Shown here in pieces: positions 1 to 60,829 of a stretch of DNA of 64,000 nucleotides. The notes beneath the pieces were generated by a model. It searched no databases and was not told where the DNA came from. It worked only from the letters and a program-made list of their open reading frames with translations. Source of the DNA: Escherichia phage vB_EcoM_KAW3E185; sequence record MK373782.1. The stretch is one strand, 5' to 3'. The translations under genes and the position numbers were made by a program. The stretch's first letter is position 1. Each line of letters opens with the position of its first letter.

Positions 1-2214
1 TTATTTGGCCGCTTCCACGGCCTTCATGAATTTAACGATTTGAGCGACCTGTTCTTTTGAAAGAGTACCACGTCGTCCCATGTATTCTGACACAATATGA
101 TAATTGGTTTCGAATTCAATAACCATTTTATCATCATTATCGTAAGCATTATCTTTAAGCTTATCGAAAATTTTAGCACACAATTCTAACTTCTTATTCA
201 GGTCTGTATTAGTAGCACCTGCGAATCGATTCCATCCCCAGCGATTATTTACTGTGGAGAGTTTTGCAAAATCTTTACTGATTTCTTTGTTCTTAGAGCT
301 AAAATACTTACTAAGGAAGTTAAGCTCTTCATTACGAGTAATATGGTTTAGATAGGGCTGTGCTCTACGACTTGGTGATACATACTCATCATAATCTACT
401 TTATCGATTAGCGTAATATAGTCATTAATTGATTTTTCGAACAAGCATTCTACTTCACCAAGTTTACGAACTTTCTTAGCAATCTGTGGACGGACTACAG
501 TGAACTCTTTAATATCTGACAAATCAGCAATACGGGTCAAGAAATTAGAGTCATAGTTCAACCAACCTTTATCTGCGTCAAGACATTCAGCATTAGAACG
601 ATTACGAACTATAGCATAACCTTGGATTTCACCAGCTTCACTCGCTGGAATAAAGAGATCTTCCGATACCCAAACATCGTTTTCATTCTTAAAGAACCGA
701 TGAGCACTTGGGGATTTAGGACGAGGCTGCGATGAACGTTCTTTAACTTCAATCCATGGTTTAACTAATGCAAGAATTTCAGAGGTCTTATAAAATTTAA
801 GGCTATCACCAGCGAAAATAACCTTTAATCGTTCCAGAAGTTTCATTGCAACTTCATCTTCCGGGTTAATGAATAATACGCTACTACCCCATCCGGAAGG
901 AACCTTATCAACGAGTGTTGATGCATCGGTGGAAGTCAAAGCATCGTTCAGAGCACGCATCATTGGTACGCGGCCTTTCACATCGTCAATAACGATATCA
1001 ATATGCTTACGACTAATACCTAGCAGGCTATTAATTGAAATAGTTGCAGACGAGCTTCCGCTTTCACGAATACGACGAAGTCGTGGGTCTGAAACGATAT
1101 CATATACAACGCCAAGGTTGCACCATTCGGGTCCCATTTTAAAACGTTTGTACAACTCGGAATAAGTTAGTTGTTCTTTAGAGTATTTCAGTGATTCAAT
1201 ATTAGACCCAGCCTTTTCCATGTATTTACGAGCGGTATAGCCAAGAGAATCAATTTCACGGAACACATGACGTGGGTATTTACAATCAATCCATTTCTTA
1301 GAATCTTCAGCGAACAATTTAGCATCGATTTCTGCAACGCGTTTATGGATATTTGCTACTGTACGTTTATCAAATGACAATGCTTCACGAGACGGGGCTA
1401 CATCTAGTTCACCCATAGGGAATTTAATATAAGCTGTAGTGCATCGCGTCATCATCCATGTTTGTTCTTTAATAACACTTCCGATTGGATATACAATACC
1501 ACCATAAACAGCCATGATATTACCACGTTCACCCCATGGAGCTTCCTTGGCCAAATATACATCGTCAAATTCTGGGAAGTATTTAATATCTTTAACACCA
1601 CGAACTTCTGCAATATCACCTAGAGGACGCATAACATATGCAATTTCGGATGCGAACTTTTCAAAATCTTCCGGGTTAACCGGTACAACTACTTCTACAC
1701 CCGTACGGTCATCAGGGCCCATCTTATCTACAAAGGTTGGCTTAATTTGTGGACCCGTATCATCTTGGTAGATTACGTAACCACGAACTTCACCGTTGTG
1801 ATAAGACGTAAGGTTAAACGTATCGGTATATGCTAGTGGAGCTTTAGAGCCGAGTCCGAATCCACCAATGAAATCATTACTCGATGTTTTAGTTGAAGCA
1901 AAATATGAGTTATAGATTCCTGGCTCTTCGTCATTACCTCGAATGGTGAAATCACTCATACCAGGACCAAAGTCTCGAACTACAAAACGTGGGTCTAAAC
2001 GACCTGGTGCCTGAACAATAAACTTATCAGTGCAACCATTAAGAATTTGCCCATCAATACAGTTTGTGATTAATTCACGTACACAAGCCAATTCTTTGTT
2101 TGTATAAAGGTCATTAGACAAAATCTTATAAACTTTGCTATTGCCTTGAATAGTGAATGCTGTGCTCTTACCGCCTGAACCAATAATCGTTTCTTTAGCC
2201 GTTTCAATAATCAT
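1..2214 (-). CDS. rIIA: rIIA protein (737 aa)
   Basis: Complete ORF whose stop codon is window bases 1-3; size and position directly before the gene 39 block as in T4-type genomes; GSGGKS motif near N-terminus. Confidence 0.8.
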   Translation of the reverse strand: MIIETAKETIIGSGGKSTAFTIQGNSKVYKILSNDLYTNKELACVRELITNCIDGQILNGCTDKFIVQAPGRLDPRFVVRDFGPGMSDFTIRGNDEEPGIYNSYFASTKTSSNDFIGGFGLGSKAPLAYTDTFNLTSYHNGEVRGYVIYQDDTGPQIKPTFVDKMGPDDRTGVEVVVPVNPEDFEKFASEIAYVMRPLGDIAEVRGVKDIKYFPEFDDVYLAKEAPWGERGNIMAVYGGIVYPIGSVIKEQTWMMTRCTTAYIKFPMGELDVAPSREALSFDKRTVANIHKRVAEIDAKLFAEDSKKWIDCKYPRHVFREIDSLGYTARKYMEKAGSNIESLKYSKEQLTYSELYKRFKMGPEWCNLGVVYDIVSDPRLRRIRESGSSSATISINSLLGISRKHIDIVIDDVKGRVPMMRALNDALTSTDASTLVDKVPSGWGSSVLFINPEDEVAMKLLERLKVIFAGDSLKFYKTSEILALVKPWIEVKERSSQPRPKSPSAHRFFKNENDVWVSEDLFIPASEAGEIQGYAIVRNRSNAECLDADKGWLNYDSNFLTRIADLSDIKEFTVVRPQIAKKVRKLGEVECLFEKSINDYITLIDKVDYDEYVSPSRRAQPYLNHITRNEELNFLSKYFSSKNKEISKDFAKLSTVNNRWGWNRFAGATNTDLNKKLELCAKIFDKLKDNAYDNDDKMVIEFETNYHIVSEYMGRRGTLSKEQVAQIVKFMKAVEAAK

Positions 2215-2226
2215 ATTTTTCTCTCA

Positions 2227-2427
2227 TCACAAGTTACGTTTAAAAATTTCTGCCACTTCGAGAAGTTCTTCTTTAGTAGCTGTATCGGTTTGTATTTTAT
2301 ATCGAATTTCTTTAAAGCGTTCTTTAAAGGACTCTGCTGACTCGATATCAAAAAATCTTTGGATAAGCCGGAATTCCCGGAGCACTGCTTTATCAAAAAG
2401 TTCCAAGTCCACGTTATATGTTCTCAT
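2227..2427 (-). CDS. small hypothetical protein (66 aa) at rIIA.1 position
   Basis: ORF 13 nt upstream of rIIA start, same strand; assignment positional only. Confidence 0.5.
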   Translation of the reverse strand: MRTYNVDLELFDKAVLREFRLIQRFFDIESAESFKERFKEIRYKIQTDTATKEELLEVAEIFKRNL

Positions 2428-2452
2428 AATATTCTCTTCAGTATATTCCTAG

Positions 2453-2503
2453 GGCACTATTACTAAAGACCATATAATCTATCATCTTATGTGTAATAGT
2501 GCC
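2453..2503. repeat. inverted repeat, about 11-bp arms (ggcactattac / gtaatagtgcc) with about 29-nt spacer
   Basis: Read directly in the intergenic region between the glycosyltransferase stop and rIIA.1 start; coordinates approximate. Confidence 0.45.
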
Positions 2504-2519
2504 TCAGGCTATTCAGGAT

Positions 2520-3620
2520 TTACGCTGTGAAGATTTTATCCCACATCGCAACAACTGCATCTCGGTTATACTTCTTCCATACTGCTTCAGCACGTTTAAC
2601 TCGAGCTTCGTATGTGTCAGTGAATTCTAATACAGCTTTTGTGTAAAGCGCAACTACTTCTTTCTTAGGAGTAGAGGAATCAATTTCTACACGCACAGTA
2701 TCTGGGTCGTATTCAAATGTCGCATGAGGATAATCCTTAAAAACTAACTGGATTACAGGGACACCTTTAGAGATGGCTTCAATAGAACTATTCTCTACCG
2801 TACCTGTGTCAGGACACGTATTAATAAGTGCTTTAGCTGTTTTAAGGCGTTCCATGATTTCACTGTGTGGAGCATCAATAATAACAGGATATTTAGCCGG
2901 TGGTGCCCATTTGCTTGGACAGTATCCTACACCATTTTCGCCTAGTGCTTTAATCGCTTCAAGAGCAACATCAGTACGACGCATTTTAGTGTCATAACGT
3001 TGTGCACTAATAATCAGATCAGTCGCCGGAAGAACTTCAGGTTTCTCATTCAAACAAATAACCGGATAATCTTCGGTTTCAAACAACGGATTTGCTCGCC
3101 AATAATCATAATCAATTTTGTCAGTCAGACCTGAAGTCATATAACAATATTTGCGTTCAAATTCACGGAAGGCTTTAGTAGGAGCATAACTCTTACCACC
3201 GTTCTTACGAATTTGAATAGTCTGGTCCCAAATTTGAACAATGCCACGAGATACTGGTTCAAATGGTGTTGCCATAAAATTCTTATGAACTTTAGAGAGA
3301 CCTGCGTCTTTAATTGCCTGAACGGTTAGTTTAGTCGGTTCCATAGTAACAACAAAATCGTATTCATGGATGCCGGCTAGTTCAACAATCTTACGAGCCA
3401 TAGTATAACTCATACCTAGACTGAATTTAGTCAGATGACCAACAGGATGATGATTAACCTTCCAATCACCAAATGTGTCATTATCAAAACCGATATAATC
3501 AATATCGGCACCGATGGACACAAGATATTTCAACACATTTAAATGTACTGCTTCAAGACCACCTTGTACACGTTCTGGGTTAAATGGGACTGCACGAGAT
3601 GGGATAAACATAACTTTCAT
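2520..3620 (-). CDS. putative GT-B fold (GT4-like) glycosyltransferase, 366 aa
   Basis: N-terminal MKVMFIPSRAVPF...GGLEAVHLNVLKYL and C-terminal ...TGTVENSSIEAISKGVPVI resemble GT4 donor-binding motifs; occupies the slot where T4 has gene 60/mobA. Confidence 0.5.
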   Translation of the reverse strand: MKVMFIPSRAVPFNPERVQGGLEAVHLNVLKYLVSIGADIDYIGFDNDTFGDWKVNHHPVGHLTKFSLGMSYTMARKIVELAGIHEYDFVVTMEPTKLTVQAIKDAGLSKVHKNFMATPFEPVSRGIVQIWDQTIQIRKNGGKSYAPTKAFREFERKYCYMTSGLTDKIDYDYWRANPLFETEDYPVICLNEKPEVLPATDLIISAQRYDTKMRRTDVALEAIKALGENGVGYCPSKWAPPAKYPVIIDAPHSEIMERLKTAKALINTCPDTGTVENSSIEAISKGVPVIQLVFKDYPHATFEYDPDTVRVEIDSSTPKKEVVALYTKAVLEFTDTYEARVKRAEAVWKKYNRDAVVAMWDKIFTA

Positions 3621-3640
3621 AATTAAGCCTTATTAAAATT

Positions 3641-3664
3641 AAAATGAAGCTCCCGAAGGAGCTT
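3641..3664 (-). terminator. hairpin aagctcc-UUCG-ggagctt followed by U-rich tract on minus transcript
   Basis: Perfect 7-bp stem with UUCG loop overlapping the gene 39 stop codon, followed by cattttaatttt; coordinates approximate. Confidence 0.5.
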
Positions 3665-5480
3665 AGGACATCCATTCTTTACGAAGTTCTGAATCATCAC
3701 CCATCAACATTTCAAAGAGTTCTTTCCAATTTTCAGGAAGTTTAACTACGTCGTACACAGGGTTCTGAATCATTTCACGATATTCTGACTTTTCAAGGGA
3801 GCCTAATCCCTTGATGTATCGAATACTATGCTTAGGCAGTGTATCTTTAACTTCTTCATACTCAGCTACAGTATAAAACCATTTTTGAGCTTTGCCAATT
3901 TGTGCAATAATTACAGGTGTTTTAACAAAGCGAATACGTCCTTGTTCAAACAATTCAGGCCAATTACTAAAGAAAGCAAGCAAAGCCGGATAGATACTTC
4001 CAAGACCGTCATGATCGGCATCAGTCATAATTGCAATATTACGATAGTTCGTATTCTCTGCCTTTTCACCAAGAATAAGACCCGTGATAGCACAGATATC
4101 AAAGAGCTCTTTGTTCTTCATCATATCAGCATATGACATACCCCAGCTATTCATCACCTTACCACGTAATGGGAATCCGCCGTGTAGTTCACGGTCACGA
4201 ACATCAATGAGATAACCAATTGCCGAATCACCTTCTGTTAAAAACAATGTCGTATCTGCATCTTTACCACATTGGTTAGCTTTAATATGCTTATGAACCT
4301 TAGCTTTAGTTGCCTTTTTAGCTGCTTTAGTTTCTGCAGCCTTTTCTGCTGCCAATTTACGAGCTAATGCTGCTTCAACAATAGGCATAATCAAGGCTTC
4401 GTTTTTAAGAAGTGCCTGAGCAATTTTCTTAGCATCTAATTGGATATGATTACGAATATCACCATACGTTGACGTTAAACGTTCTTTAGTCTGAGAATCA
4501 AAACGCATGTTGCTCATGTCTCTAATAAACATCAACATTGTGAGACATTCTTTAACACGAGCTTTAGTGACTTCAATACCCTTATATTTCTTTTTAATAC
4601 CAGGCAAAAGATGTTCACAGATATCATCCATTACACATTCAACATGATGACCACCATTTTTAGTATGGATGTTATTCACATAAGTTAAATGACGGAAGCC
4701 ATCTGGTGATGTTGTGAATGCTATAGAGACTTTATCATTTTCTTGAATGATGTTATCTTCGCCAAATTGTTTAGCAAATCGTTTAAAATTACCATCAACC
4801 TTTTTACCATTAAATGTGAACTTGATATCAGGATAAACGACTGCCAATGTTTGAAGTCTGTCTAAAGTAATATCTAAATAAATTTGAGATAAATTATGCT
4901 CTTCAAATGAAGAGAAATCAGGAGTGAAGATTACTTTAGTGCCTTTACATTTAGATTTCTTAGAAGACCATGATTTGTTTTCCATTCCGTTTGAACAGTT
5001 AACAGTGATTTCATTTTCGCCATCTGACGTGATGCCTGTAAACAACGTAGAGAAGATATTAGTTAAACTACTCCCGACGCCGTTCATACCACCAGTCTTG
5101 CGTTCAGAATCATCACCAAAGTTACCACCAGCCTTTGGAATAGTCCAGGCTGCTACAGGCCCAGGAATTTGTTCACCTGTTTGGTCGGTAACTAAACCTT
5201 GAGGAATACCACGTCCGTTATCTTCCACCGAAACTTGATTATTTTTAATTTGCACATCAATTTTATTTGCAAACTTAAATGATGTACGAATAGATTCATC
5301 AACCGAGTTGTCAATAATCTCATCGATTAATTTAACCAGACCAGGAACATATTCAACTTGTTGATATTTACCAAACAAAAAACGCTCATGTGCTTCTTTA
5401 GCAGAAGAACCAATATACATACCACTACGTTTCTTAATATGTTCTACATCTGACAATACCTTAATTTCATTTTTAATCAT
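3663..5480 (-). CDS. 39: DNA topoisomerase II large (ATPase) subunit, unsplit 605-aa form
   Basis: GHKL ATPase motifs (GLVKLIDEIIDNSVDE, GGMNGVGSS); length equals the fused gp39+gp60 form known from T2/T6-type phages. Confidence 0.9.
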   Translation of the reverse strand: MIKNEIKVLSDVEHIKKRSGMYIGSSAKEAHERFLFGKYQQVEYVPGLVKLIDEIIDNSVDESIRTSFKFANKIDVQIKNNQVSVEDNGRGIPQGLVTDQTGEQIPGPVAAWTIPKAGGNFGDDSERKTGGMNGVGSSLTNIFSTLFTGITSDGENEITVNCSNGMENKSWSSKKSKCKGTKVIFTPDFSSFEEHNLSQIYLDITLDRLQTLAVVYPDIKFTFNGKKVDGNFKRFAKQFGEDNIIQENDKVSIAFTTSPDGFRHLTYVNNIHTKNGGHHVECVMDDICEHLLPGIKKKYKGIEVTKARVKECLTMLMFIRDMSNMRFDSQTKERLTSTYGDIRNHIQLDAKKIAQALLKNEALIMPIVEAALARKLAAEKAAETKAAKKATKAKVHKHIKANQCGKDADTTLFLTEGDSAIGYLIDVRDRELHGGFPLRGKVMNSWGMSYADMMKNKELFDICAITGLILGEKAENTNYRNIAIMTDADHDGLGSIYPALLAFFSNWPELFEQGRIRFVKTPVIIAQIGKAQKWFYTVAEYEEVKDTLPKHSIRYIKGLGSLEKSEYREMIQNPVYDVVKLPENWKELFEMLMGDDSELRKEWMS

Positions 5481-5523
5481 GTTGTCTCCTCGTTATGAAG
5501 GTATTCTATCATCCGAAATCTAA

Positions 5524-5546
5524 AGCAAAAAGGGCCGAAGCCCTTA
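5524..5546 (-). terminator. hairpin gggc-UUCG-gccc followed by U5
   Basis: Stem-loop immediately after the stop of the 140-aa ORF, before gene 39 start; coordinates approximate. Confidence 0.5.
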
Positions 5547-5966
5547 TTTAAATTTAATTTTCTGAAGTGCATCAATTGCAGCCAAACGCCCTTGTTCACT
5601 TTTAACTGTAATGACCACATCACCTGATACGATCACCGAACCATCAACAAATTCTATAGAGCCTTTTTTGAAATCTACGGCTGTATCTGATTCAGGAACT
5701 TCTTCAAAGAATTTAAATTCTGCACCGTAAATTAGAATATCACCTTGCATACTAATGATTGTACGTCCAGGTCCATCGGTTTCAGCGGCAATCATTGAAA
5801 CACCATAACCAATCATCTCTTCTACAATAAAATCTCTTGATAATAAAACTGTATGCAGAGTAGTGTTAAGACGTTTACCAGTCGTATTAAGAATTCTCAA
5901 GAAATTATCTTCCTGTCCTTTAATAATACGATATTTCTTACCAACTTCAAAACCTTTAAAAGCCAT
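5544..5966 (-). CDS. hypothetical protein (140 aa)
   Basis: ORF on gene strand between gene 39 and the zinc-ribbon ORF; no recognisable motif. Confidence 0.5.
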   Translation of the reverse strand: MAFKGFEVGKKYRIIKGQEDNFLRILNTTGKRLNTTLHTVLLSRDFIVEEMIGYGVSMIAAETDGPGRTIISMQGDILIYGAEFKFFEEVPESDTAVDFKKGSIEFVDGSVIVSGDVVITVKSEQGRLAAIDALQKIKFK

Positions 5967-5968
5967 AA

Positions 5969-6148
5969 TTAACCCTTCTTAAGTAAGTCGTAAAAACCAC
6001 CGTTCACATGTTTAGGAGCAGAAACCCGACGAGTAGACAGACGATGACATTCAGGGCAAACATCGTTTTCTCGTTCAGAAATCCTTTTAATTTTTTCATA
6101 TTCATGGCCACAATCTTCAGATTGGCATTTATAGTCGTATAATGGCAT
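5969..6148 (-). CDS. FmdB-like zinc-ribbon protein (59 aa, CxxC...CxxC)
   Basis: Not in ORF track (under 60 aa); hand translation gives MPLYDYKCQSEDCGHEYEKIKRISERENDVCPECHRLSTRRVSAPKHVNGGFYDLLKKG; fills a 180-nt gap. Confidence 0.45.
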   Translation of the reverse strand: MPLYDYKCQSEDCGHEYEKIKRISERENDVCPECHRLSTRRVSAPKHVNGGFYDLLKKG

Positions 6149-6150
6149 TA

Positions 6151-6561
6151 TTATTCCTTAAAATGTGCTTTCAACATTTGATACAAAGACCATGCCTGGT
6201 CGTTATTTTTGATAGTAATCGTCATCACCGGAAATTCAGACAATTCGTCAAGTTCACCAGAATCTTGCTCTTCAGACTCTTGATATGGATTTCCAACTTC
6301 GTCAAAGAACTCTGCTTCATTCGTGGAGAGCCAGATAAAGTTTTCATCAAGGATATCACCGCCTGTTGCGTATCCAACCATGCCAGTAGATGTCACAATT
6401 TTAGTAGGACGCCCAAGATGGTCAACATCTAATACTTTAAATGGTTCCATGCCAAGACGTCGTGCGTAAATCCCATTATCAGTATGGTCTTTAATAAACT
6501 CTTCTTGGGCACGTTTATCTTTAAATTGGTACCATGAGTTAACGCGGAATTTATTAGCCAT
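6151..6561 (-). CDS. hypothetical protein (about 136 aa)
   Basis: Track ORF 6151-6579; start chosen at the ATG (MANKF...) that overlaps the upstream stop in a TAATG arrangement. Confidence 0.5.
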
Positions 6562-6788
6562 TAGTAAGTTTCCTTCCAATAAGTTGTACCGTTTTCAGTG
6601 ATTTCACGGAAGATACCATAGATAGGCATTTCATCACCGAGTTTTTCGTAAACGTAAACCACTTCAGTGTAGCATAAAAATTCAGTCCAGTTTTTCTGTA
6701 CAACAACTAAATCAGGATTAAACAGAACATCTTCAAACTCATCGATGTTTGAATCAGTAGTTACGTTTTTAATGATTTGACGTTTCAT
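6561..6788 (-). CDS. hypothetical protein (about 75 aa)
   Basis: Track ORF 6561-6833; start chosen at Met16 (MKRQ...), which has a GAGGAG Shine-Dalgarno. Confidence 0.45.
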
Positions 6789-6845
6789 AATATTCTCCTC
6801 TTGTTTTGATAGGTCTATAGTATCATAGACCATAGTTGTTGTACA

Positions 6846-7370
6846 TCATTTTAGCAAAATAAAATCAACTTGTTCTGCCAATGAACGTCTAAACATTAAT
6901 TGACAACTTCCGAGGATGAAATCAGGTGCTTCATAGACGGCGATGTAGTATCCTTTAGCTTTCAAGAGTTCAACATCCACCTGGTCATCAAACCATGCAT
7001 AAACCGCGTCAACACTTTCAAATCCAAAATAGAACCCTTGAGCCCAATCTTCACTCAATTCAAATGTGTGCTCAATTCTATAGTATCTTAAGATATTTTG
7101 TTCAAGGAGTTTGTCTTCATTTACTGTAGGACGATTAGGGACATTATAGTTGTCGCCATGATGGTAGAAGTTACCCGAGAGTATTCCATGCTTATCAAGG
7201 AACTCCCATGTTTCTTCAGAGTTGTCGGTGCCTGACCAACCGTATGGTGAGCGAGGTTCTTTATTCCAAGAGGTTTCCCAAATTCTGATGGCTTTACCGT
7301 CTTCGATAGCAATTCCTGGTAATGATTCACGTTGAGTACAAAAACTACGTTCTACGCGGTAAACTATCAT
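6846..7370 (-). CDS. hypothetical protein (174 aa)
   Basis: ORF with GGAG Shine-Dalgarno and upstream early promoter. Confidence 0.5.
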   Translation of the reverse strand: MIVYRVERSFCTQRESLPGIAIEDGKAIRIWETSWNKEPRSPYGWSGTDNSEETWEFLDKHGILSGNFYHHGDNYNVPNRPTVNEDKLLEQNILRYYRIEHTFELSEDWAQGFYFGFESVDAVYAWFDDQVDVELLKAKGYYIAVYEAPDFILGSCQLMFRRSLAEQVDFILLK

Positions 7371-7396
7371 ATTATTCTCCTCTGGTTGATATGGTT

Positions 7397-7425
7397 ATAA
7401 TATCAAAACCGGAGGAGAAGTAAAC
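7397..7425 (-). promoter_or_regulatory. sigma70-type early promoter (-35 GTTTAC, 17-nt spacer, -10 TATTAT)
   Basis: Consensus hexamers read on minus strand upstream of ORF 6846-7370; coordinates approximate. Confidence 0.45.
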
Positions 7426-7429
7426 AACT

Positions 7430-7849
7430 TTATGCAAAAGATGCTGGACAATATTTTTTGATTTGGAACTCAGGAACTACCATGAACTGACCAGCGAAAA
7501 CGATGTTATAAAGCTTAACACCATCTTCAACCCATTGGTCTGAAATAAAACCAGCGACTTGATTCGTTGTCCATGGAGACCCATCAGTTGCGGCAGCAAT
7601 AGTAAATTCATGGTCTTTTACAACTAAAACTGACCTGCACAGTTTCCATTTGAACGCTTTTTCTTCTGGTTCAATGAACTGGCTTGAGACGTAACCAATG
7701 TTACCATTAACATCTCGAACTTTAACTTCGTTACATCCAAAAACCGGATCACTCACAGAAAGAACTTCAACCAACTTCCCGGCAACTTTAGAGCGAGAAG
7801 CAACAGATACATATACGTAATCACCTGTAGAGAGATTTACAATATTCAT
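7430..7849 (-). CDS. hypothetical protein, paralog A of a three-member family (139 aa)
   Basis: Shares N-terminal (ASRSKxAGKLVEV) and C-terminal (GFISDQWVEDGxKLYNIVF) blocks with the next ORF. Confidence 0.55.
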   Translation of the reverse strand: MNIVNLSTGDYVYVSVASRSKVAGKLVEVLSVSDPVFGCNEVKVRDVNGNIGYVSSQFIEPEEKAFKWKLCRSVLVVKDHEFTIAAATDGSPWTTNQVAGFISDQWVEDGVKLYNIVFAGQFMVVPEFQIKKYCPASFA

Positions 7850-7858
7850 AATAATTCC

Positions 7859-8323
7859 TTAAGCTTTACGAGGAGACACATAGCGAGTGATTTCAGATTC
7901 TTTAACAACTCGGAAGTCACCTAAGAATACGATATTGTATAACTTTTCACCATCTTCAACCCATTGGTCGCTAATGAAGCCACACATAGTATCAGTTTTG
8001 CTTGGATAACCATATTCATCGATGAAGTCAAATTCTTTATCAGTCTGGAATTCAACACCTTTACACAAGGCCCATTTGAACTGTGTAGTAGGCTCAACGA
8101 TATCGCTTGAAGCAAAGTGGGCACTTACACGAGTTTCCAAGAATTTAGGACTTACATAGGCGAACTGAGTTTCAGTTTTTCCAGAACTAGGAATGATTCG
8201 AACTTTAACTTCTTTAATACGGCCCATGCCATTAGTACGAAGTCCTACTACTTCAACCAGCTTTCCTGCAGCTTTAGAACGAGACGCTGTCGATACACGC
8301 TTAATTTCACCAATAGTAATCAT
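7859..8323 (-). CDS. hypothetical protein, paralog B (154 aa)
   Basis: See paralog A; same conserved blocks. Confidence 0.55.
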   Translation of the reverse strand: MITIGEIKRVSTASRSKAAGKLVEVVGLRTNGMGRIKEVKVRIIPSSGKTETQFAYVSPKFLETRVSAHFASSDIVEPTTQFKWALCKGVEFQTDKEFDFIDEYGYPSKTDTMCGFISDQWVEDGEKLYNIVFLGDFRVVKESEITRYVSPRKA

Positions 8324-8351
8324 AATTTCTCTCTTTGTTTAAGTTGAATTC

Positions 8352-8381
8352 ATTATACTCCATCCATCCTTGGATGTACAA
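8352..8381 (-). promoter_or_regulatory. early promoter (-10 TATAAT; -35 TTGTAC-like) with ccaaggatgg-type spacer
   Basis: Near-copy of the promoter cassette at 8910, 52881 and 53901; coordinates approximate. Confidence 0.4.
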
Positions 8382-8383
8382 CA

Positions 8384-8878
8384 TTAATTAAGGATATTAA
8401 CCACAGCACTACGCGGAACTACACTAAAATCACCTGCATGAACTACGTTCAGAAGTTCAACACCGTCTTCAATCCACTGATCAGTTGCCCATCCATTTAC
8501 TGGACCAGCGAATGGGCGTCGAATTGAAACATATTTACACAACAAATCAGTAGGCTCAATAGGCTTAATCAGAGTACCGTACATACAAGCGATATCCATA
8601 TCAATACAGATGTCTTTAACGGGTTCTACTTCTTCAATCAACAATTCAAAGTCAGTGCTTGGAAGGGCGGTAGTAGAAATTGTACCGTGTGAATTTTTAA
8701 TTTCTAAGAATAACCAAGGGCCTTCAGCTTGTTTGATGAAGTTAACAATAGTGAAACTATTACCTTGAGTGGCACCTAAAATTTCACAAAACTTTTCATA
8801 AGCTCGCACTGAAGCACCGTACCAGTTGATTTGTTTTTCGTCTTTCAGGATGTAAGTAGCCGTAGTATTGATATTCAT
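8384..8878 (-). CDS. hypothetical protein, paralog C (164 aa; shares only the C-terminal module)
   Basis: C-terminus WATDQWIEDGVELLNVVHAGDFSVVP aligns with the paralog A/B C-termini. Confidence 0.5.
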   Translation of the reverse strand: MNINTTATYILKDEKQINWYGASVRAYEKFCEILGATQGNSFTIVNFIKQAEGPWLFLEIKNSHGTISTTALPSTDFELLIEEVEPVKDICIDMDIACMYGTLIKPIEPTDLLCKYVSIRRPFAGPVNGWATDQWIEDGVELLNVVHAGDFSVVPRSAVVNILN

Positions 8879-8909
8879 AATGTTTTTCCTGTTTGGTTAA
8901 GATAGAAAG

Positions 8910-8939
8910 ATTATACTCCAACCATCCTTGGTTGTAAAC
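8910..8939 (-). promoter_or_regulatory. early promoter (-35 GTTTAC, 18 nt, -10 TATAAT), cassette family A
   Basis: Minus strand reads GTTTACaaccaaggatggttggagTATAAT; coordinates approximate. Confidence 0.5.
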
Positions 8940-8944
8940 AGGTT

Positions 8945-9622
8945 TTATCGCTGTTTTACACTTAACGGGTCAGGATTCTCAGGGACATCTTCAAGGCCAA
9001 GCGCATAACGCTGAGCATATTTTAACATCAAAATATCTTTAGCACAATCATGAATACTATCATGGGCAACGAATCCTTTTAGCGTACCCATCGGTAATGG
9101 ACACATACTTAATCCTCGTGTCAACGAGTAAGCTTCGATTGCCGTACGAATATCGCGTTGAGCCCAGAATTTAACCGGTTCTAATTTATCAGTATCAATA
9201 TCTGGTTCAAGAACACCTTCATCACGATAGAGGTCACGAATCAAATCGACCAAGATCGGGAAGTCAAAGCTCATACCACGGCACCACATCTGTGATTTCC
9301 ATTGGTCAACTTTATTAGCTCGGCAATAGTCTAAAAAGATTTTAATGCCTTCAAGCGTAGTGACATCGTCTTCAGACGGAGCCAGGTTTTTACGCGCTTC
9401 TGCTGACTGTTCTTTCCACCATTTCATAGTGGATTTAGCGAAAACTCGCTTCCCTTTCTGAGAAGCTAAATTAAATTTAATTCGCTTACCTCGTTGAACA
9501 AGTTCTTCAAATGATTCAACAACTTCAGGGTCGGAATTATATGCAATAACCGCAAGGTCAATAACAGCCGCTTTTGATGTATTGCCGAATGTTTCAAAAT
9601 CTATAATAACATCAGTGCTCAT
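8945..9622 (-). CDS. dexA: exonuclease A (DnaQ-like 3'-5' exonuclease), 225 aa
   Basis: N-terminal IIDFETFG DEDD exonuclease motif; position next to dda as in T4. Confidence 0.75.
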   Translation of the reverse strand: MSTDVIIDFETFGNTSKAAVIDLAVIAYNSDPEVVESFEELVQRGKRIKFNLASQKGKRVFAKSTMKWWKEQSAEARKNLAPSEDDVTTLEGIKIFLDYCRANKVDQWKSQMWCRGMSFDFPILVDLIRDLYRDEGVLEPDIDTDKLEPVKFWAQRDIRTAIEAYSLTRGLSMCPLPMGTLKGFVAHDSIHDCAKDILMLKYAQRYALGLEDVPENPDPLSVKQR

Positions 9623-9631
9623 AATTTTCTC

Positions 9632-10945
9632 TCAAATAAAATGGACGTCAAAACGACCACGAGTTGTGCCGACATACAATAACTGTTTAGCTAATTCTGA
9701 ATCGGCATAATGGATACACGGTGTATAAACAAAGGCTGTGTCAACAGACATACCCTGGGCCTTATGGAAGGTTGATACAGGTAGTGCCTTCACCTTAGTG
9801 AACATACGTTTAGCATCCCAGAATTCGCTCCATGGAGCTTTACCGCCTTTATTCCAGAATTTGTATGTTTCTGCGGTCTTAGCCAAAAACAAATTGAATT
9901 TATAAAGCTCTTCTTCAGAAGAAATAACCTTTATATCTTCGCGGATGTATTCTTCATCATCCCCATATGTTTCTACTGTAAGATTCCAGTATCGTATCAT
10001 ATATTCGCCTGAAACACCACGTGCTTTAACGAATGTAGACGTTTCTACAGCATCTCGAATACGAACGAATTGCCCGTTATTGAAAAGCATTTCGGTCATA
10101 TTTTTGCCATCTAGTTTATATGTCTTAGTAAATGGCTCTTGTAGAACAATGACTTCGTCTTTAATAAATGGTTTTTCTGTTTCAAGAAGTTTTCGGCGAA
10201 TAATTGAATTCAACTTGTCCACCGACTTATTTGTGAATGCCATCATTCGATTTTCGAAAAGGTCTTCAGGAGTTTTAACGACATTAAAATAGTTCGTCAT
10301 ATACGATTTAAGGTCTGTATATCCGTGAACACCGTGTCCATCAACTACTTTATCGTAAATCCATTTGCCATTACGAATATCAGTCGCAACATCAATAATT
10401 GGTGCATTGCTACGTTTAACTTCTGTAAGGTTGCATTGCACGAAGTCTTTGTGAGTGAAGAAAGGACTTAGATACGCAGTTGATTCGCCTGGGTCTACCG
10501 GACGAATCTGGCATCGGTCGCCGATGCCAATTACTGTACACCATTTAGGGATACTAGCTAACATTATTTTAAACAGAGAACGGTCGCACATTGACGCTTC
10601 ATCAAATAACAGTACACGACACAAGGCTAAGTCGGGAACCTTTTTCTGTTCAAACAATACGTTTTCTTCGTATGTAGTTGGGTTGATTTTAAGAATGCTA
10701 TGAATAGTCGATGCTTCTTGGCCCGCAAGTTTGCTTAGAACCTTTTTAGCAGCATGTGTAGGGGCTGCTAAAATAATACCTGATTCTCCAGAAGAAATAA
10801 GGGCTTCAACGATGAATCTAGTAAGGGTTGTTTTACCTGTACCAGCGGGCCCGTTAATAGTTACGTGATGTTTCTTTTCTTTAATAGCGTTCATAACAAC
10901 GTTGAAGGCGTTTTTCTGGCCTTCAGTCAAATCATCAAATGTCAT
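9632..10945 (-). CDS. dda: Dda DNA helicase (SF1), 437 aa
   Basis: Walker A GPAGTGKTT; N-terminus MTFDDLTEGQKNAF matches T4 Dda as I recall it. Confidence 0.9.
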   Translation of the reverse strand: MTFDDLTEGQKNAFNVVMNAIKEKKHHVTINGPAGTGKTTLTRFIVEALISSGESGIILAAPTHAAKKVLSKLAGQEASTIHSILKINPTTYEENVLFEQKKVPDLALCRVLLFDEASMCDRSLFKIMLASIPKWCTVIGIGDRCQIRPVDPGESTAYLSPFFTHKDFVQCNLTEVKRSNAPIIDVATDIRNGKWIYDKVVDGHGVHGYTDLKSYMTNYFNVVKTPEDLFENRMMAFTNKSVDKLNSIIRRKLLETEKPFIKDEVIVLQEPFTKTYKLDGKNMTEMLFNNGQFVRIRDAVETSTFVKARGVSGEYMIRYWNLTVETYGDDEEYIREDIKVISSEEELYKFNLFLAKTAETYKFWNKGGKAPWSEFWDAKRMFTKVKALPVSTFHKAQGMSVDTAFVYTPCIHYADSELAKQLLYVGTTRGRFDVHFI

Positions 10946-10969
10946 CGTAAAGTCCCTGCAATTGGAATA

Positions 10970-11308
10970 CTAACAATACGGCCTGTGTCTAGGATTCGTT
11001 GATACAATCTTTGCGTCTCCGCATCTAGCAATACGGCCTGTGTCTAGGATTCGTTGATACAATCTTTGCGTCTCCGCATCTAGTTTAATGTGTTTCATTT
11101 CAAGCTTATTAAACCAGAACTTACGCGGAGTTTCGACCATTCTTAGAACTCCCATTTTTAAATCTGTTTTATACTGTGTTTTCAAAGTATCGAAAACTTT
11201 ATCTGCAATATCCTTTCTAAAAAATACTGCAGGACGATGCTCATCAAGTGGAACCGGGACAGTAAATCCTTCCATATCTCGATAAACTATTGCATATACA
11301 TAAACCAT
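10970..11308 (-). CDS. hypothetical protein (112 aa) with C-terminus altered by a 55-bp tandem duplication
   Basis: ORF upstream of dda; the last 20 codons are read from the second repeat copy in a shifted frame. Confidence 0.45.
   Translation of the reverse strand: MVYVYAIVYRDMEGFTVPVPLDEHRPAVFFRKDIADKVFDTLKTQYKTDLKMGVLRMVETPRKFWFNKLEMKHIKLDAETQRLYQRILDTGRIARCGDAKIVSTNPRHRPYC
10974..11083. repeat. perfect direct tandem repeat, 2 x 55 bp
   Basis: caatacggcctgtgtctaggattcgttgatacaatctttgcgtctccgcatctag occurs twice back to back. Confidence 0.9.
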
Positions 11309-11310
11309 AA

Positions 11311-12057
11311 TTAACCTTTAATCAGTTGGAATAATGATGCGCTAAGTGGTAAGCCACGTTTCAATTTTAATTTACCAATGAAACCAATCTTTTCAAAACG
11401 TTGCAGACCTTGGATAACTTTATCATATGTATCGAAAAGCGATTCAGCGTCAGTTAATTTAGTTTTAGTTTTCCAGTCAGAGCCTTTAAGAAGAACGTTG
11501 AGTTTAGTAAGTTCATGGCCTTCTGCTTGATGTGAGCCATTAATGCGTGCTTTCAAAGCAACAATTCTAAGTTTAGATTCGTTAGATAAAGGTTGATTTT
11601 TCATCATGTTCGCCATATGCTTAACACGATTTTCACGTTTTGCTCGGATTTTTAAAATAGTACCATAAACCTTTTTAATTTGGGCCCATTTCTTCTCGTC
11701 GAGATTAAGTTTCTCTACTTTACAGACAGAAGGATTAGCGATACGTCTTGCAATGGCATCACGTTTCTCAATAAGTTCTTCTAATGTTAAATCAGAACGA
11801 GCCGTGTTATATTTTTTCTTAACTGGGATAACATTACCTTTAATGTAGCCTATATCATTATTAAAACGTTCTAAGGATAATTTCTCACATTCAACAGAGT
11901 TATTAAAAGATTCACCTGAGTAAGCGCAGACCTTTTGATCAAGAATGTTTTTAAGGTAATTAAAGTCTAAGTTAAAATCCTTAGAGCGTCTCTTCGCAGA
12001 AGCTCTGGTGTGGTCAAGACGACGATTGATTTTGTTAATTTTATTATTTGATAACAT
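11311..12057 (-). CDS. hypothetical basic protein (248 aa) at the srd position
   Basis: ORF between the dda-upstream gene and modA; assignment positional only. Confidence 0.45.
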   Translation of the reverse strand: MLSNNKINKINRRLDHTRASAKRRSKDFNLDFNYLKNILDQKVCAYSGESFNNSVECEKLSLERFNNDIGYIKGNVIPVKKKYNTARSDLTLEELIEKRDAIARRIANPSVCKVEKLNLDEKKWAQIKKVYGTILKIRAKRENRVKHMANMMKNQPLSNESKLRIVALKARINGSHQAEGHELTKLNVLLKGSDWKTKTKLTDAESLFDTYDKVIQGLQRFEKIGFIGKLKLKRGLPLSASLFQLIKG

Positions 12058-12818: not shown

Positions 12819-12847
12819 TTTATTTCTCCTCACGTTTCGATAAAGTA

Positions 12848-19162: not shown

Positions 19163-19225
19163 TTTAACTCCTTAGTTGATTTGATAGGACTACTATACTA
19201 TAGTCCATCTATAATGTAAACAAGT

Positions 19226-20684: not shown

Positions 20685-20710
20685 TTTGTTCTCCAGTAGT
20701 TGATAGGTCT

Positions 20711-20739
20711 ATAATAACACAACTACTGGAGAAGTAAAC
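20711..20739 (-). promoter_or_regulatory. early promoter (-35 GTTTAC, 17 nt, -10 TATTAT), cassette family B
   Basis: Minus strand reads GTTTACttctccagtagttgtgtTATTAT; coordinates approximate. Confidence 0.5.
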
Positions 20740-21114
20740 TTAAAAATGTAATTTAGATATATCTGCGTTGATTTCGTTTTGGTTTGCGTCATATGCAATT
20801 AAACGAACCGCTTTAGATGGGTCATTCAATGCATAGAAATGATGGAACATTGCTCGAACGATATCACCATTTACGAGTTCTACCTGGATAGGAGAACCTT
20901 TTTCGAGTTGGAAATGTTCGTAAGCTTTGATGGTTCGTAGATAATCAAGTTTTTGATTTCCAGCTCCAACTATTTGTACGATACGTTTGCCTGTGTTTTC
21001 CATACGAGATACAATAGTTTTAGGAGCAAGAATAACGTAGGTTGCCAGCGGAGAAACTACTTCAACAGTTGTGTTTTCGGTGATTGCAGTAAAAATTGCT
21101 TGAGACATATTCAT
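20740..21114 (-). CDS. hypothetical protein (124 aa)
   Basis: ORF on gene strand. Confidence 0.5.
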   Translation of the reverse strand: MNMSQAIFTAITENTTVEVVSPLATYVILAPKTIVSRMENTGKRIVQIVGAGNQKLDYLRTIKAYEHFQLEKGSPIQVELVNGDIVRAMFHHFYALNDPSKAVRLIAYDANQNEINADISKLHF

Positions 21115-33591: not shown

Positions 33592-33622
33592 TTTGTTTGT
33601 TGATGAACTTATTATACTCCAA

Positions 33623-51902: not shown

Positions 51903-52852
51903 TATAACACCTCAATGGCATTTCGTAAACCATCCGCTTTCGCATTCAGAGCTTTTAACGATTTAGTTTGTTCTGCAATCTGGGCTTCGACTTCTTTCAG
52001 ACGAGATTTGAGATATTCGCGTTCTTCTCTTAAGTTATCAACTTTTTCTGCTTTAGGCTCTTTAATAGACTTAGGCTTATACTCGTTAGGGTTCTTCAAC
52101 TTAATTTGAATGCGAGAACTGTATAACATTGAACCATTATCTTCGGTTTCATCATACATTTCTACCACGTCCATGATTCTTAACATCATGCGAAGTTTAT
52201 AAGACAGCGAACGAATGGTTTTATTGTGCTTCTTAATTTCTTCAACTTTCATGGTGCCGAGATTACGTGAGTAATAATAAGGAACCTGAATATCAATTGA
52301 TAATGATGCGGTACCATTACCGGTTGGTTTGAACACTGCAGTAACCCAATCTTTAGCATGAACTGTATTTGTACGATCATCGCCGCCTGTGAATAATTTA
52401 CGAGAATGTTTAAAAAGCATATTCACTTGGTTATTGAATTCACAAGCAAATTTATCAGCAAATTTAGTTTCAGGAATGGTAGTTAACCAATCAGCCAAAT
52501 GAGTCTTTTTAACATCATTAACAATAGTGAATTCAACCAAATCGGTTTTAGATGTCACAGATTTAATAAAGCTCGGCTTCATAAAGTTTTTAATGTTATC
52601 GCGAGCTACAGTAGAAGATAATAAACGAGAACGTTTGAACCATTGAAGCAGTGTCCCTAATGAATGAGAATATGCATTTTGAGTATCTTTACAGATATGA
52701 TTTTCTTGGCCTATGTATGTACCAAAATCTCGAAGAATACCACTTACTACATCTCGGTGTGGAACATCAAATCCTAGTACACCAGAAGCACGTTGGGCAT
52801 GAACGTTAGCGATAAGACCTGCAAAGTATTCAATGTAATGTGAACGTGTCAT
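51902..52852 (-). CDS. hypothetical protein with C-terminal coiled coil (316 aa)
   Basis: Heptad-like C-terminus; own early promoter. Confidence 0.5.
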   Translation of the reverse strand: MTRSHYIEYFAGLIANVHAQRASGVLGFDVPHRDVVSGILRDFGTYIGQENHICKDTQNAYSHSLGTLLQWFKRSRLLSSTVARDNIKNFMKPSFIKSVTSKTDLVEFTIVNDVKKTHLADWLTTIPETKFADKFACEFNNQVNMLFKHSRKLFTGGDDRTNTVHAKDWVTAVFKPTGNGTASLSIDIQVPYYYSRNLGTMKVEEIKKHNKTIRSLSYKLRMMLRIMDVVEMYDETEDNGSMLYSSRIQIKLKNPNEYKPKSIKEPKAEKVDNLREEREYLKSRLKEVEAQIAEQTKSLKALNAKADGLRNAIEVL

Positions 52853-52880
52853 AATATTTTCCTCTCGTTAAGATAAATTC

Positions 52881-52910
52881 ATTATACTCCAACCATCCTT
52901 GGTTGTAAAC
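52881..52910 (-). promoter_or_regulatory. early promoter (-35 GTTTAC, 18 nt, -10 TATAAT), cassette family A
   Basis: Same 30-bp cassette as at 8910-8939; coordinates approximate. Confidence 0.5.
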
Positions 52911-52914
52911 TGAT

Positions 52915-53874
52915 TTATGATTTTAACGCATTCATTGCGTTAAAAAGTTTAGAATACTGCAACTGGAGATTCGTTACAACACTTTGAGCATCACGAAGCT
53001 TAGCTTGTGCTTTGTCAAGTTCAACAGACAGTTGGTCCATAGTGGCCTTGATTTGATTGTAATGGTAATCTTCGGCCGGAAGAAGGTCATTAGAAACATT
53101 TAGTTTTACTGCAGACAGTTTGCACACATTTGGCAAACCTTTAAACATTGATTTACCCGAAGTAGAATAAGCACTTAGGACTTCGGCCTGTTCAATTGGG
53201 GTCCCAGTAAGCGATGCTTCAAACAATGCATTTTCCTTTTTAAGATTTTGATAGTATTCAGAGTCTTTGTGCCACCATGGCGCAGGAACCTTTTTACCAA
53301 TAGATACACGAGCCTGGATAGCGATATTGCCCTTATTCTTGATAGGGTCGATAATATTAAGCTCACGAGAATAAATTGCTTTAATCTGGTGAATATTATC
53401 ACCTAACACTTCCAACGCTTGGTGGAATACACGAGCAACGTTATCATTCTTAGGTTTATACGTAAGAGTGAACTCGTTCTCACTGATAACCATGATTTCC
53501 AACTTATCGTAAGTATATTTCAAATGTTTCATGTTAATTGCTTGAGGACGAATACGAGAAGCAATGGCCATCAGATTGTTAAGGTTATTCCGGAACTGCT
53601 TAGCGAAATATTGTCCTTCACCGCCAATACAAAAATTACGAAGTTTCTGTTTGGCCAATAAACGGCTGAACTCGCCATTTTTAATGAACTCTTTAACGGG
53701 TGTGTTAGTAACGCATTCAAATTGAGTAAACTTACGAGAATTAATCCCATAATACGAACAGATTTCCTCAATCTCTTCAGGAGTCTTTACAGGCATACGG
53801 ATAGGATTAGGTCCTGGAGTATATGCGTTCGAGGTAAATTCTTTGATAAGTTCTCTACGTGTAATAAAAGCCAT
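52915..53874 (-). CDS. hypothetical protein with C-terminal coiled coil (319 aa)
   Basis: Heptad-like C-terminus; own early promoter. Confidence 0.5.
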   Translation of the reverse strand: MAFITRRELIKEFTSNAYTPGPNPIRMPVKTPEEIEEICSYYGINSRKFTQFECVTNTPVKEFIKNGEFSRLLAKQKLRNFCIGGEGQYFAKQFRNNLNNLMAIASRIRPQAINMKHLKYTYDKLEIMVISENEFTLTYKPKNDNVARVFHQALEVLGDNIHQIKAIYSRELNIIDPIKNKGNIAIQARVSIGKKVPAPWWHKDSEYYQNLKKENALFEASLTGTPIEQAEVLSAYSTSGKSMFKGLPNVCKLSAVKLNVSNDLLPAEDYHYNQIKATMDQLSVELDKAQAKLRDAQSVVTNLQLQYSKLFNAMNALKS

Positions 53875-53900
53875 TTTATATTCCTCATGTTGAAAAATTT

Positions 53901-53930
53901 ATTATACTCCAACCATCCTTGGTTGTACAT
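53901..53930 (-). promoter_or_regulatory. early promoter (-10 TATAAT; -35 GTACA-like), cassette family A
   Basis: Near-copy of the 8910/52881 cassette; coordinates approximate. Confidence 0.45.
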
Positions 53931-55515: not shown

Positions 55516-55542
55516 GTTTTACCTCCAGTAGTTGATAGGTCT

Positions 55543-55571
55543 ATAATAACATAACCATAGACCTTGTAAAC
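55543..55571 (-). promoter_or_regulatory. early promoter (-35 GTTTAC, 17 nt, -10 TATTAT), cassette family B
   Basis: Hexamers followed by AGACCTATCAACTACTGGAGG leader; coordinates approximate. Confidence 0.5.
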
Positions 55572-55573
55572 AA

Positions 55574-55861
55574 CTAAAAGAAACTTTTTTCGGTATTTTT
55601 TCCACTGAACCAAACAGACTTCGGGATTTTTTGTAATTTTTCAGATTTAAGTTTCTCTTCCTGTTCTTTCTTATATACACCCTTGTCGTACTGGAGCACC
55701 TCTATGGCATTCTTTTGCAAACGATCTAAGGTAATTAAGGCTTTAGTTTTTCCTTTCAAGGAAGAGTCCTGGCGAACCTCCTCGCTATATTGCATTGTAG
55801 AACTAACCATACGATGAGCATACAGTTCTACTGCGGCTTTAATTTTTTGCATAAAATCCAT
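55574..55861 (-). CDS. hypothetical protein (95 aa)
   Basis: ORF on gene strand with AGAGGA Shine-Dalgarno. Confidence 0.45.
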   Translation of the reverse strand: MDFMQKIKAAVELYAHRMVSSTMQYSEEVRQDSSLKGKTKALITLDRLQKNAIEVLQYDKGVYKKEQEEKLKSEKLQKIPKSVWFSGKNTEKSFF

Positions 55862-56468: not shown

Positions 56469-56694
56469 ATCTGAGAATACGTCAACGTCGTCGATTAAGA
56501 GAACGCTGTCTGCATCACGGTTGAGCCAAAGTTGTTCGTAAAGGCCAATACCGGAGATTTTACCATACTCGCTTCAATAAGATTCACTATGCCGTTTACC
56601 ATGTTATAGGTAAACATCGGATAATTGTATTGTACTACAACATAAGCGATAAGCAAAAGTTTCATTTTGTTCTCCGTTCGTTTTGATAGGACTA

Positions 56695-56723
56695 CTATAA
56701 TATAGTCCTACCAAGATGTAAAC
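56695..56723 (-). promoter_or_regulatory. early promoter (-35 GTTTAC) with GGACTA...TAGTCC near-palindrome
   Basis: Upstream of the 56-codon ORF starting about 56663; coordinates approximate. Confidence 0.35.
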
Positions 56724-57116: not shown

Positions 57117-57143
57117 AACGTTCTCCTCTAGTAAGTAAGGTTT

Positions 57144-57172
57144 ACTATAACACAACCTGAGGAGAAGTAAAC
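57144..57172 (-). promoter_or_regulatory. early promoter (-35 GTTTAC, 17 nt, -10 TATAGT), cassette family B
   Basis: Minus strand reads GTTTACttctcctcaggttgtgtTATAGT; coordinates approximate. Confidence 0.45.
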
Positions 57173-57187
57173 TGATAGATGCCAAAA

Positions 57188-60768: not shown

Positions 60769-60796
60769 TTTGATTTCTCCTCTAGTTGACAGGTCT

Positions 60797-60825
60797 ATAG
60801 TAACACAACTAGAGGAGAAGTAAAC
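60797..60825 (-). promoter_or_regulatory. early promoter (-35 GTTTAC, 17 nt, -10 TACTAT), cassette family B
   Basis: Minus strand reads GTTTACttctcctctagttgtgtTACTAT upstream of regB; coordinates approximate. Confidence 0.5.
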
Positions 60826-60829
60826 TACT

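What the first reader, a model, noticed from the sequence alone, without database searches (positions are those of the whole stretch)
10974..11083. Perfect 55-bp tandem duplication that frameshifts the gene immediately upstream of dda
A 55-bp unit occurs twice in perfect tandem inside the 3' end of ORF 10970-11308. Because 55 is not a multiple of 3, the second copy is read in another frame and the ORF ends at a TAG 24 nt before dda. If one copy is removed, the reading frame instead runs to a TGA that overlaps the dda ATG (ATGA), the normal coupling arrangement in this genome. The duplication therefore looks derived: a recent mutation, a hot spot, or an assembly artefact. It changes the C-terminus of the upstream protein and may uncouple dda translation.
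Basis: seen in the sequence. Interest (0 to 1): 0.7.

Follow-up and report, generated by a model that had tools for sequence, protein, structure and literature searches.

The report
Untrimmed 55-bp assembly overlap in dda.1
The perfect 55-bp tandem duplication is really in the sequence and does frameshift the small gene upstream of the dda helicase, but it is most likely an untrimmed assembler overlap (k-mer size 55) left in when a circular phage contig was re-opened at the conventional start, so it is probably not biology.

Summary
Window 10974-11028 and 11029-11083 are identical, and this is the only tandem repeat in the 64 kb. It shifts the frame of the dda.1 homologue (Pfam PF25693, minus strand, 10970-11308), so the ORF stops at a TAG 24 nt before the dda ATG. 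Deleting one copy restores a 103-aa protein whose TGA overlaps the dda ATG (ATGA).

The window is an RB69-like T4-type coliphage (Mosigvirus). Every relative examined has one copy:
- the 60 listed of 326 matching phage records
- 11 loci read at the site, taken from contigs encoding the identical Dda
- the closest relative, phage moha

The novel junction occurs in none of 50,697 phage records.

I judge it an assembly artefact (about 0.85) for four reasons:
- The length is exactly 55, the terminal overlap SPAdes leaves on circular contigs. A paper on phages that include this genus describes trimming it.
- The record opens exactly at the rIIA stop codon, so it was re-oriented after assembly. That moves the old contig ends inside the sequence.
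- The two copies are identical.
- There is no microhomology at the borders.

A real, very recent duplication in the sequenced stock (about 0.13) cannot be excluded without reads. A recurrent hot spot is not supported. Interest is low.

The parts
10974..11028 (.). Copy 1 of the 55-bp unit. Under the artefact reading, these are the last 55 bases of the original contig.
   Evidence: Identical to 11029-11083; TRF period 55.
11029..11083 (.). Copy 2 of the 55-bp unit. Under the artefact reading, these are the first 55 bases of the original contig. The novel junction lies between 11028 and 11029.
   Evidence: The junction 40-mer 11009-11048 is absent from 50,697 phage records and from metagenome contigs.
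10970..11308 (-). Frameshifted dda.1 homologue (112 aa as written). Residues 1-93 are normal. Residues 94-112 are an out-of-frame reading of the second copy. Stop codon TAG at 10972-10970.
   Evidence: ORF list; translation; Pfam PF25693 Phage_Y01A, E=1.6e-23; phrog_1079.
10942..10973 (-). The normal 3' end of dda.1 (codons for ...SIPIAGTLR plus TGA at 10944-10942). It is out of frame in the window as written, and in frame once one copy is removed.
   Evidence: The same sequence and frame occur in G53, RB69, moha and L003-L010, L012, L015-L017.
9632..10945 (-). dda helicase gene (437 aa). Its ATG at 10945-10943 forms ATGA with the normal dda.1 stop. An AGGGA Shine-Dalgarno-like motif lies 7 nt upstream of the ATG.
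1..3 (-). Stop codon of rIIA. The window (and hence the record) opens exactly here, which is the convention for T4/RB69-type records and shows the sequence was re-oriented after assembly.
   Evidence: The window's first 30 nt equal the start of moha's rIIA CDS locus. Window base 1 aligns to record base 1 of JK36, MM02, WFL6982, WFK and G53.

Best explanation
The duplication is an assembly or finishing artefact, not a feature of the phage DNA. The phage is a circularly permuted, headful-packaging T4-type virus (Mosigvirus, RB69-like), so a de Bruijn-graph assembler returns its genome as one 'circular' contig. The first k bases of such a contig repeat at its end. With SPAdes at a largest k of 55, that overlap is exactly 55 bp. 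The contig was then re-opened at the conventional start, the rIIA stop codon. The old ends were joined without trimming one overlap copy, or two graph-adjacent contigs overlapping by k were butt-joined. Either way a perfect 55-bp tandem duplication results, at an arbitrary place. Here it fell in the 3' end of dda.1 and creates an apparent frameshift. The true genome almost certainly has one copy: a 103-aa Dda.1 whose TGA overlaps the dda ATG. Shown here: the duplication itself, its uniqueness, the re-orientation of the record, and the absence of border microhomology. Inferred: the assembler and its k value.
For: 1. The length is exactly 55 and the copies are identical. [quoted passage not shown] From my own knowledge, 21,33,55 is the SPAdes default k series for shorter reads.
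2. The record was re-oriented, which is the precondition for a terminal overlap to end up inside the sequence. Window base 1 is the complement of the rIIA stop codon and aligns to base 1 of five other Mosigvirus records. PMC8785237 recommends this re-opening and warns users to check contigs for duplicated regions.
3. The duplication is unique. All 60 listed relatives of 326 matching records span 596 nt instead of 651. The junction 40-mer is in 0 of 50,697 phage records. Of the 13 contigs with the identical Dda protein, the 10 places shown include 9 that reach the site, and all 9 have one copy (8 with a complete 103-aa gene overlapping dda by 4 nt); the tenth ends inside the unit. Three metagenome contigs are also single-copy.
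4. Compared with the closest relative moha (98.2% identity), the window is gap-free from 1 to 11028, and the 55-bp insertion is the only indel longer than 2 nt in 25 kb.
5. A synonymous SNP shared only with moha (window 10990) is present in both copies (11045), so the copies have not diverged at all.
6. There is no microhomology at the borders. Periodicity is exactly 110 nt, as expected for a k-mer overlap. No hairpin or inverted repeat in the unit would promote slippage.
7. The single-copy frame is the conserved one. The restored protein is identical to G53's. In a spread sample of the 737 records with a homologue, all 26 rows above 75% identity align over residues 1-103 in one 309-nt piece.
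Against: No reads, assembly metadata or source accession are available, so the assembler and its k value are inferred, not known. The exact source genome is not in any searchable collection. The 112-aa product and this rIIA are 'not on record', and no phage record matches at 100%. A real duplication would also be perfect, unique and derived. It would be tolerated, because dda.1 loses only its last 10 residues. The match of 55 to a default k-mer could be a coincidence.
Confidence: 0.85

Rival explanations
1. The duplication is real and very recent, present in the sequenced phage stock. A replication template switch or an illegitimate recombination event duplicated 55 bp in the 3' end of dda.1. 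The last 10 residues of Dda.1 are replaced by 19 out-of-frame residues. Ribosomes terminate 24 nt upstream of the dda ATG instead of on it.
For: The sequence as given contains it. The change would be tolerable. Pfam and PHROG scores barely drop: 85.8 to 83.5 bits and 116 to 109.6 bits. dda keeps its own AGGGA motif, and the predicted structure and accessibility at its start are about the same with one or two copies (unpaired probability of the Shine-Dalgarno region 0.48 vs 0.54). Identical copies that both carry the moha-type SNP fit a very young event. From my own knowledge, T4-type phages do generate duplication frameshifts.
Against: Nothing biological predicts a length of exactly 55, whereas it is the documented SPAdes overlap. 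There are no short direct repeats at the endpoints (0 nt) and no hairpin in the unit. The duplication is absent from every relative and independent contig examined. It disrupts a frame conserved in 737 records. By inference, a 55-bp perfect tandem repeat should also be lost readily in a phage with highly active recombination unless selection maintains it.
Confidence: 0.13
2. The site is a recurrent mutational hot spot or a natural length polymorphism, with both one-copy and two-copy alleles circulating among Mosigvirus phages.
For: Only that the duplication exists here. The unit has a weak internal period-26 self-similarity (56% matches).
Against: The junction 40-mer is in 0 of 50,697 phage records, although 326 of them carry the locus. 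It is absent from IMG/VR and from metagenome contigs, but those two sets hold very few close relatives. Every locus read at the site is single-copy.
Confidence: 0.01

Closest known systems
SPAdes k-mer terminal overlap on circular contigs (~55 bp in PMC12509680; 127 bp in PMC5923482)
   Same: It is an exact duplicate whose length equals a default SPAdes k (55). It occurs in a circularly permuted T4-type phage genome that was re-opened at a conventional start. It has no counterpart in relatives.
   Different: In the published descriptions the two copies sit at the two ends of the contig and are trimmed. Here they lie side by side inside the record, which requires the extra, inferred step of rotation or joining without trimming. 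The assembler used is unknown.
Spontaneous duplication frameshifts in T4-type phages (Streisinger-type slippage or illegitimate recombination between short direct repeats; from my own knowledge)
   Same: It is a tandem duplication whose length is not a multiple of three, producing a frameshift in a non-essential early/middle gene.
   Different: Those events are normally bounded by short direct repeats or fall in repetitive runs. Here the border microhomology is 0 nt, and the size matches an assembler parameter.
T4 dda.1-dda operon (Dda.1 = Y01A, Pfam PF25693)
   Same: The gene order dexA - dda - dda.1 - srd - modA - modB is as in RB69 and T4. The ORF matches PF25693. In T4, dda.1, dda, dexA.2 and dexA.1 are reported as one polycistronic, partly NAD-capped transcript, and Dda.1 is uncharacterised (bioRxiv 10.1101/2024.04.04.588121).
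   Different: As written, the window's dda.1 has a frameshifted tail and has lost the ATGA overlap with dda that all relatives have.

Membership tests
Untrimmed assembler k-mer overlap (artefact) | The two copies are exactly identical | tested here: met
   55/55 identical.
Untrimmed assembler k-mer overlap (artefact) | The length equals the assembler's largest k | tested here: inconclusive
   The length is 55. That matches the ~55-bp SPAdes terminal repeats reported in PMC12509680 and, from my own knowledge, the default k series 21,33,55. The assembler and k actually used for this record are unknown.
Untrimmed assembler k-mer overlap (artefact) | The record was re-oriented or joined after assembly, so that the contig ends lie inside it | tested here: met
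   The window opens exactly at the rIIA stop codon and aligns to base 1 of five other Mosigvirus records.
Untrimmed assembler k-mer overlap (artefact) | Absent from related genomes, with collinear flanks | tested here: met
Untrimmed assembler k-mer overlap (artefact) | No reads support the copy-copy junction | not testable with these tools
   No read data are available and the source accession was not identified.
Slippage or microhomology-mediated tandem duplication (real mutation) | Short direct repeats or microhomology at the duplication endpoints | tested here: not met
   Perfect periodicity is exactly 110 nt. There are mismatches at 10973 vs 11028 and at 11084 vs 11029.
Slippage or microhomology-mediated tandem duplication (real mutation) | The junction is present in the physical DNA (reads or PCR) | not testable with these tools
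   This needs reads or PCR from the stock.
Mutational hot spot or polymorphism | Independent recurrence of the two-copy allele | tested here: not met
   0 of 50,697 phage records. None of the fetched loci that cover the site has it.
Pfam PF25693 Phage_Y01A (T4 Dda.1) | Score above the Pfam gathering threshold (27 bits) | tested here: met
   83.5 bits as written and 85.8 bits restored. phrog_1079 E=1.8e-31 as written and 1.9e-33 restored.

The most novel reading that the evidence does not exclude
The duplication is real in the phage stock. It would be a spontaneous 55-bp tandem duplication without endpoint homology. It would give Dda.1 a new 19-residue tail and move upstream termination from the dda ATG to 24 nt before it. 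That would offer a natural test of whether ATGA coupling matters for Dda helicase expression on the dda.1-dda polycistronic mRNA.
Probability: 0.13. Interest if true: 0.2.

Novelty: not a real feature. Interest (0 to 1): 0.06.

Why it matters
The main value is quality control. If the record is deposited as is, dda.1 will be annotated with a false C-terminus, or as a pseudogene, and the genome will be 55 bp too long. The case also gives the scan a simple rule. A perfect tandem duplication of exactly 55, 77, 99 or 127 bp, unique to a record that has been re-opened at a conventional start, should first be suspected as an untrimmed SPAdes overlap. If the duplication were real it would be a minor strain-specific mutation in an uncharacterised accessory gene, with at most a small effect on dda translation.

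Tried and rejected
- **Finding the source genome or an independent assembly of its reads.** The 112-aa product and the window's rIIA are not on record, and no phage record is identical. The assembly method could therefore not be read.
- **IMG/VR junction search.** The result was negative. A control showed that even the single-copy unit is absent there, so this search is uninformative.
- **Metagenome junction search.** The result was negative. The control found only 3 contigs with the single-copy boundary, so it is weakly informative.
- **A structural cause for slippage.** There is no inverted repeat within the unit. The only pair found lies at 11079-11118, mostly outside it. The TRF period-26 row has only 56% matches and I treat it as noise.
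- **Loss of a coupling-dependent RNA structure at the dda start.** The predicted local hairpin and the accessibility of the Shine-Dalgarno region are essentially the same with one or two copies. I rejected this as a major effect.
- **The SNP at 10990/11045 as part of a complex mutational event.** It is inherited and shared with moha, so I rejected this.
- **A Logan contig (L011) that ends 7 nt inside the unit.** The position fits neither the k=31 branch point expected for a real duplication nor the SNP position, so I treat it as coincidental fragmentation of a metagenome assembly.

Full report
**Observation.** The window carries, on its minus strand, the T4/RB69 early-gene block dexA (8945-9622), dda (9632-10945), a dda.1 homologue (10970-11308), srd (11311-12057) and modA/modB-like genes. 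Inside the 3' end of the dda.1 homologue, 10974-11028 and 11029-11083 are identical 55-mers in direct tandem. Tandem Repeats Finder gives period 55, 2.1 copies, score 221. It is the only tandem array in the 64-kb window and the only exact long direct repeat there. The periodicity is exactly 110 nt, because the bases just outside the pair do not continue the repeat: 10973 A vs 11028 G, and 11084 T vs 11029 C.

As written, the ORF encodes 112 aa. Residues 1-93 are normal, residues 94-112 (ARCGDAKIVSTNPRHRPYC) are an out-of-frame reading of the second copy, and the TAG stop lies at 10972-10970, 24 nt before the dda ATG at 10945-10943. Deleting one copy gives 103 aa ending ...RIVSIPIAGTLR, with a TGA at 10944-10942 that overlaps the dda ATG as ATGA.

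**Organism and gene.** Megablast places the window in the genus Mosigvirus (RB69-like, Straboviridae). The first 25 kb match 141 records over at least 80% of their length, and the closest is Escherichia phage moha (MN850590, 98.2%). The ORF belongs to Pfam PF25693 'Bacteriophage T4-like Y01A protein' and to phrog_1079, of unknown function. RB69 annotates it as dda.1. In T4, dda.1, dda, dexA.2 and dexA.1 are reported to form one polycistronic, partly NAD-capped transcript, and Dda.1 itself is uncharacterised (bioRxiv 10.1101/2024.04.04.588121).

**Relatives.**
- A 651-nt query across the locus matches 326 phage records. All 60 listed cover the whole query in two pieces spanning 596 = 651-55 nt, so they have a single copy.
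- Alignments with G53, RB69 and moha show a clean 55-nt gap and otherwise near-identity.
- A 40-mer centred on the copy-copy junction (11009-11048) cannot seed on single-copy sequence. It matches none of 50,697 phage records.
- Thirteen contigs from ENA, NCBI and Logan assemblies encode a Dda protein identical to the window's, and 10 places were shown. Nine reach the site and have one copy, eight of them with a complete 103-aa PF25693 gene overlapping dda by 4 nt. The tenth (L011) ends inside the unit.
- The junction is also absent from IMG/VR and from metagenome contigs. Controls show these sets hold almost no close relatives: none in IMG/VR, and three single-copy contigs in the metagenomes.
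- The restored protein is identical to that of G53 and of WFL6982.
- tblastn finds a homologue in 737 records. In a spread sample, all 26 rows above 75% identity (Mosigvirus and Tequatrovirus) align over residues 1-103 in one 309-nt piece.

The single-copy, ATGA-coupled form is therefore the conserved state, and the duplication is derived and unique to this sequence.

**How young it is.** The unit contains a synonymous SNP (window 10990 T, where most relatives have C). In the phage collection only moha shares it, and moha is single-copy. One metagenome contig, L015, also carries it and is single-copy. Both copies in the window carry it (10990 and 11045). The duplication is therefore younger than the split from moha-like phages, and the copies show no divergence. 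Against moha, the window is gap-free from 1 to 11028, and the 55-bp insertion is the only indel longer than 2 nt in 25 kb.

**Why an artefact is the best explanation.** Four independent features point the same way.
1. The length is exactly 55. SPAdes leaves the largest k-mer as a direct repeat at the two ends of a contig that closes on itself. [quoted passage not shown] From my own knowledge, 21,33,55 is the SPAdes default k series for shorter reads.
2. The record was re-oriented after assembly. T4-type phages are circularly permuted and have no fixed ends. Yet window base 1 is precisely the complement of the rIIA stop codon and aligns to base 1 of JK36, MM02, WFL6982, WFK and G53. The Phage Annotation Guide recommends this re-opening and warns users to check contigs for duplicated regions (PMC8785237). 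Rotating a contig without trimming its k-mer overlap turns the terminal repeat into an internal perfect tandem duplication at an arbitrary site.
3. There is no microhomology at the borders and no hairpin in the unit. A k-mer overlap predicts exactly this. Slippage or illegitimate recombination usually does not.
4. The duplication breaks a reading frame that is otherwise conserved without exception.

My rough weighting is as follows. A biological duplication has perhaps a 1% chance of being exactly 55 nt long, whereas 55 is one of three or four values an untrimmed SPAdes overlap can take. I therefore put the artefact at about 0.85. The remainder reflects that I could not see reads or assembly metadata.

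**The rival: a real recent mutation (about 0.13).** It cannot be excluded from sequence alone, because a fresh duplication would also be perfect and unique. If it is real, its effect would be modest:
- Only the last 10 of 103 residues are replaced, and the family scores hardly change.
- dda retains an AGGGA Shine-Dalgarno-like motif 7 nt upstream of its ATG.
- The predicted RNA hairpin and the accessibility around the dda start are the same with one or two copies.
- Upstream ribosomes would still terminate only 24 nt away.

A recurrent hot spot or standing polymorphism is not supported (0 of 50,697 records; about 0.01).

**Comparison with known things and novelty.** The feature matches the documented SPAdes terminal-overlap artefact in size and exactness. 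It differs only in lying inside the record, which the demonstrated re-orientation explains. It resembles classical T4 duplication frameshifts in outcome but lacks their endpoint repeats. I classify it as 'not a real feature'. Interest is low, and the value lies in flagging a record error and a reusable screening rule.

**What would settle it.** Any of these would decide the matter: the assembly metadata; read mapping across 11028|11029; PCR across 10900-11150 (251 bp with the duplication, 196 bp without); or inspection of the original contig ends.

Noticed in passing
window 7375-7443, 20689-20757, 55521-55589, 57142-57186, 60775-60843 (families D1/D3); 6805-6846, 19180-19221, 56682-56723 (D4): These are dispersed, imperfect intergenic repeats (62-86% identity). 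Read on the minus strand, they contain GTTTAC, about 17 nt, then a TATAAT-like hexamer, flanked by short inverted repeats (e.g. TTCTCCTC...GAGGAGAA). They look like T4-type early promoters embedded in stem-loops, similar to the 'promoter-early stem-loop' cassettes described for T4-type phages (from my own knowledge). Seen only.
   Followed up: no
window 8320-8378, 8878-8936, 52849-52907, 53869-53927, 33598-33622 (families D2/D7): A conserved motif of about 26-59 nt (...TTATACTCCAACCATCCTTGGTTGTA on the + strand) recurs immediately upstream of several minus-strand gene starts, including the tandem motB-family paralogues. It contains a small hairpin (AACC...GGTT) next to a GGAG Shine-Dalgarno motif. 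It may be a shared 5'-UTR or translation-initiation element.
   Followed up: no
window 10990 and 11045: A synonymous C->T SNP (Leu codon CTG->CTA in dda.1) is shared, among 50,697 phage records, only with phage moha (MN850590). One metagenome contig (L015) also has it. This supports moha as the nearest known lineage.
   Followed up: yes
window 12085, 12823-12846, 15005: Apart from the duplication, the only length differences from moha in the first 25 kb are five 1-2-nt indels. They fall in or next to intergenic regions: between srd and modA, around the modA start, and upstream of soc.
   Followed up: partly
L011 (Logan SRR18652150_22617), locus bases 1-36: A short metagenome contig encoding the identical Dda ends 35 nt upstream of the dda ATG, which is 7 nt inside the 55-bp unit. 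The position fits neither a k=31 branch at a real duplication nor the SNP position. I treated it as coincidental fragmentation.
   Followed up: partly
L002 (RB69 AY303349) 1643-1921: The RB69 reference annotates dda.1 from an internal start (93 aa). Newer Mosigvirus records and the window's ORF use the upstream ATG (103 aa), which the PF25693 and phrog_1079 profiles cover from residue 1-4. The old RB69 start is probably too short.
   Followed up: partly
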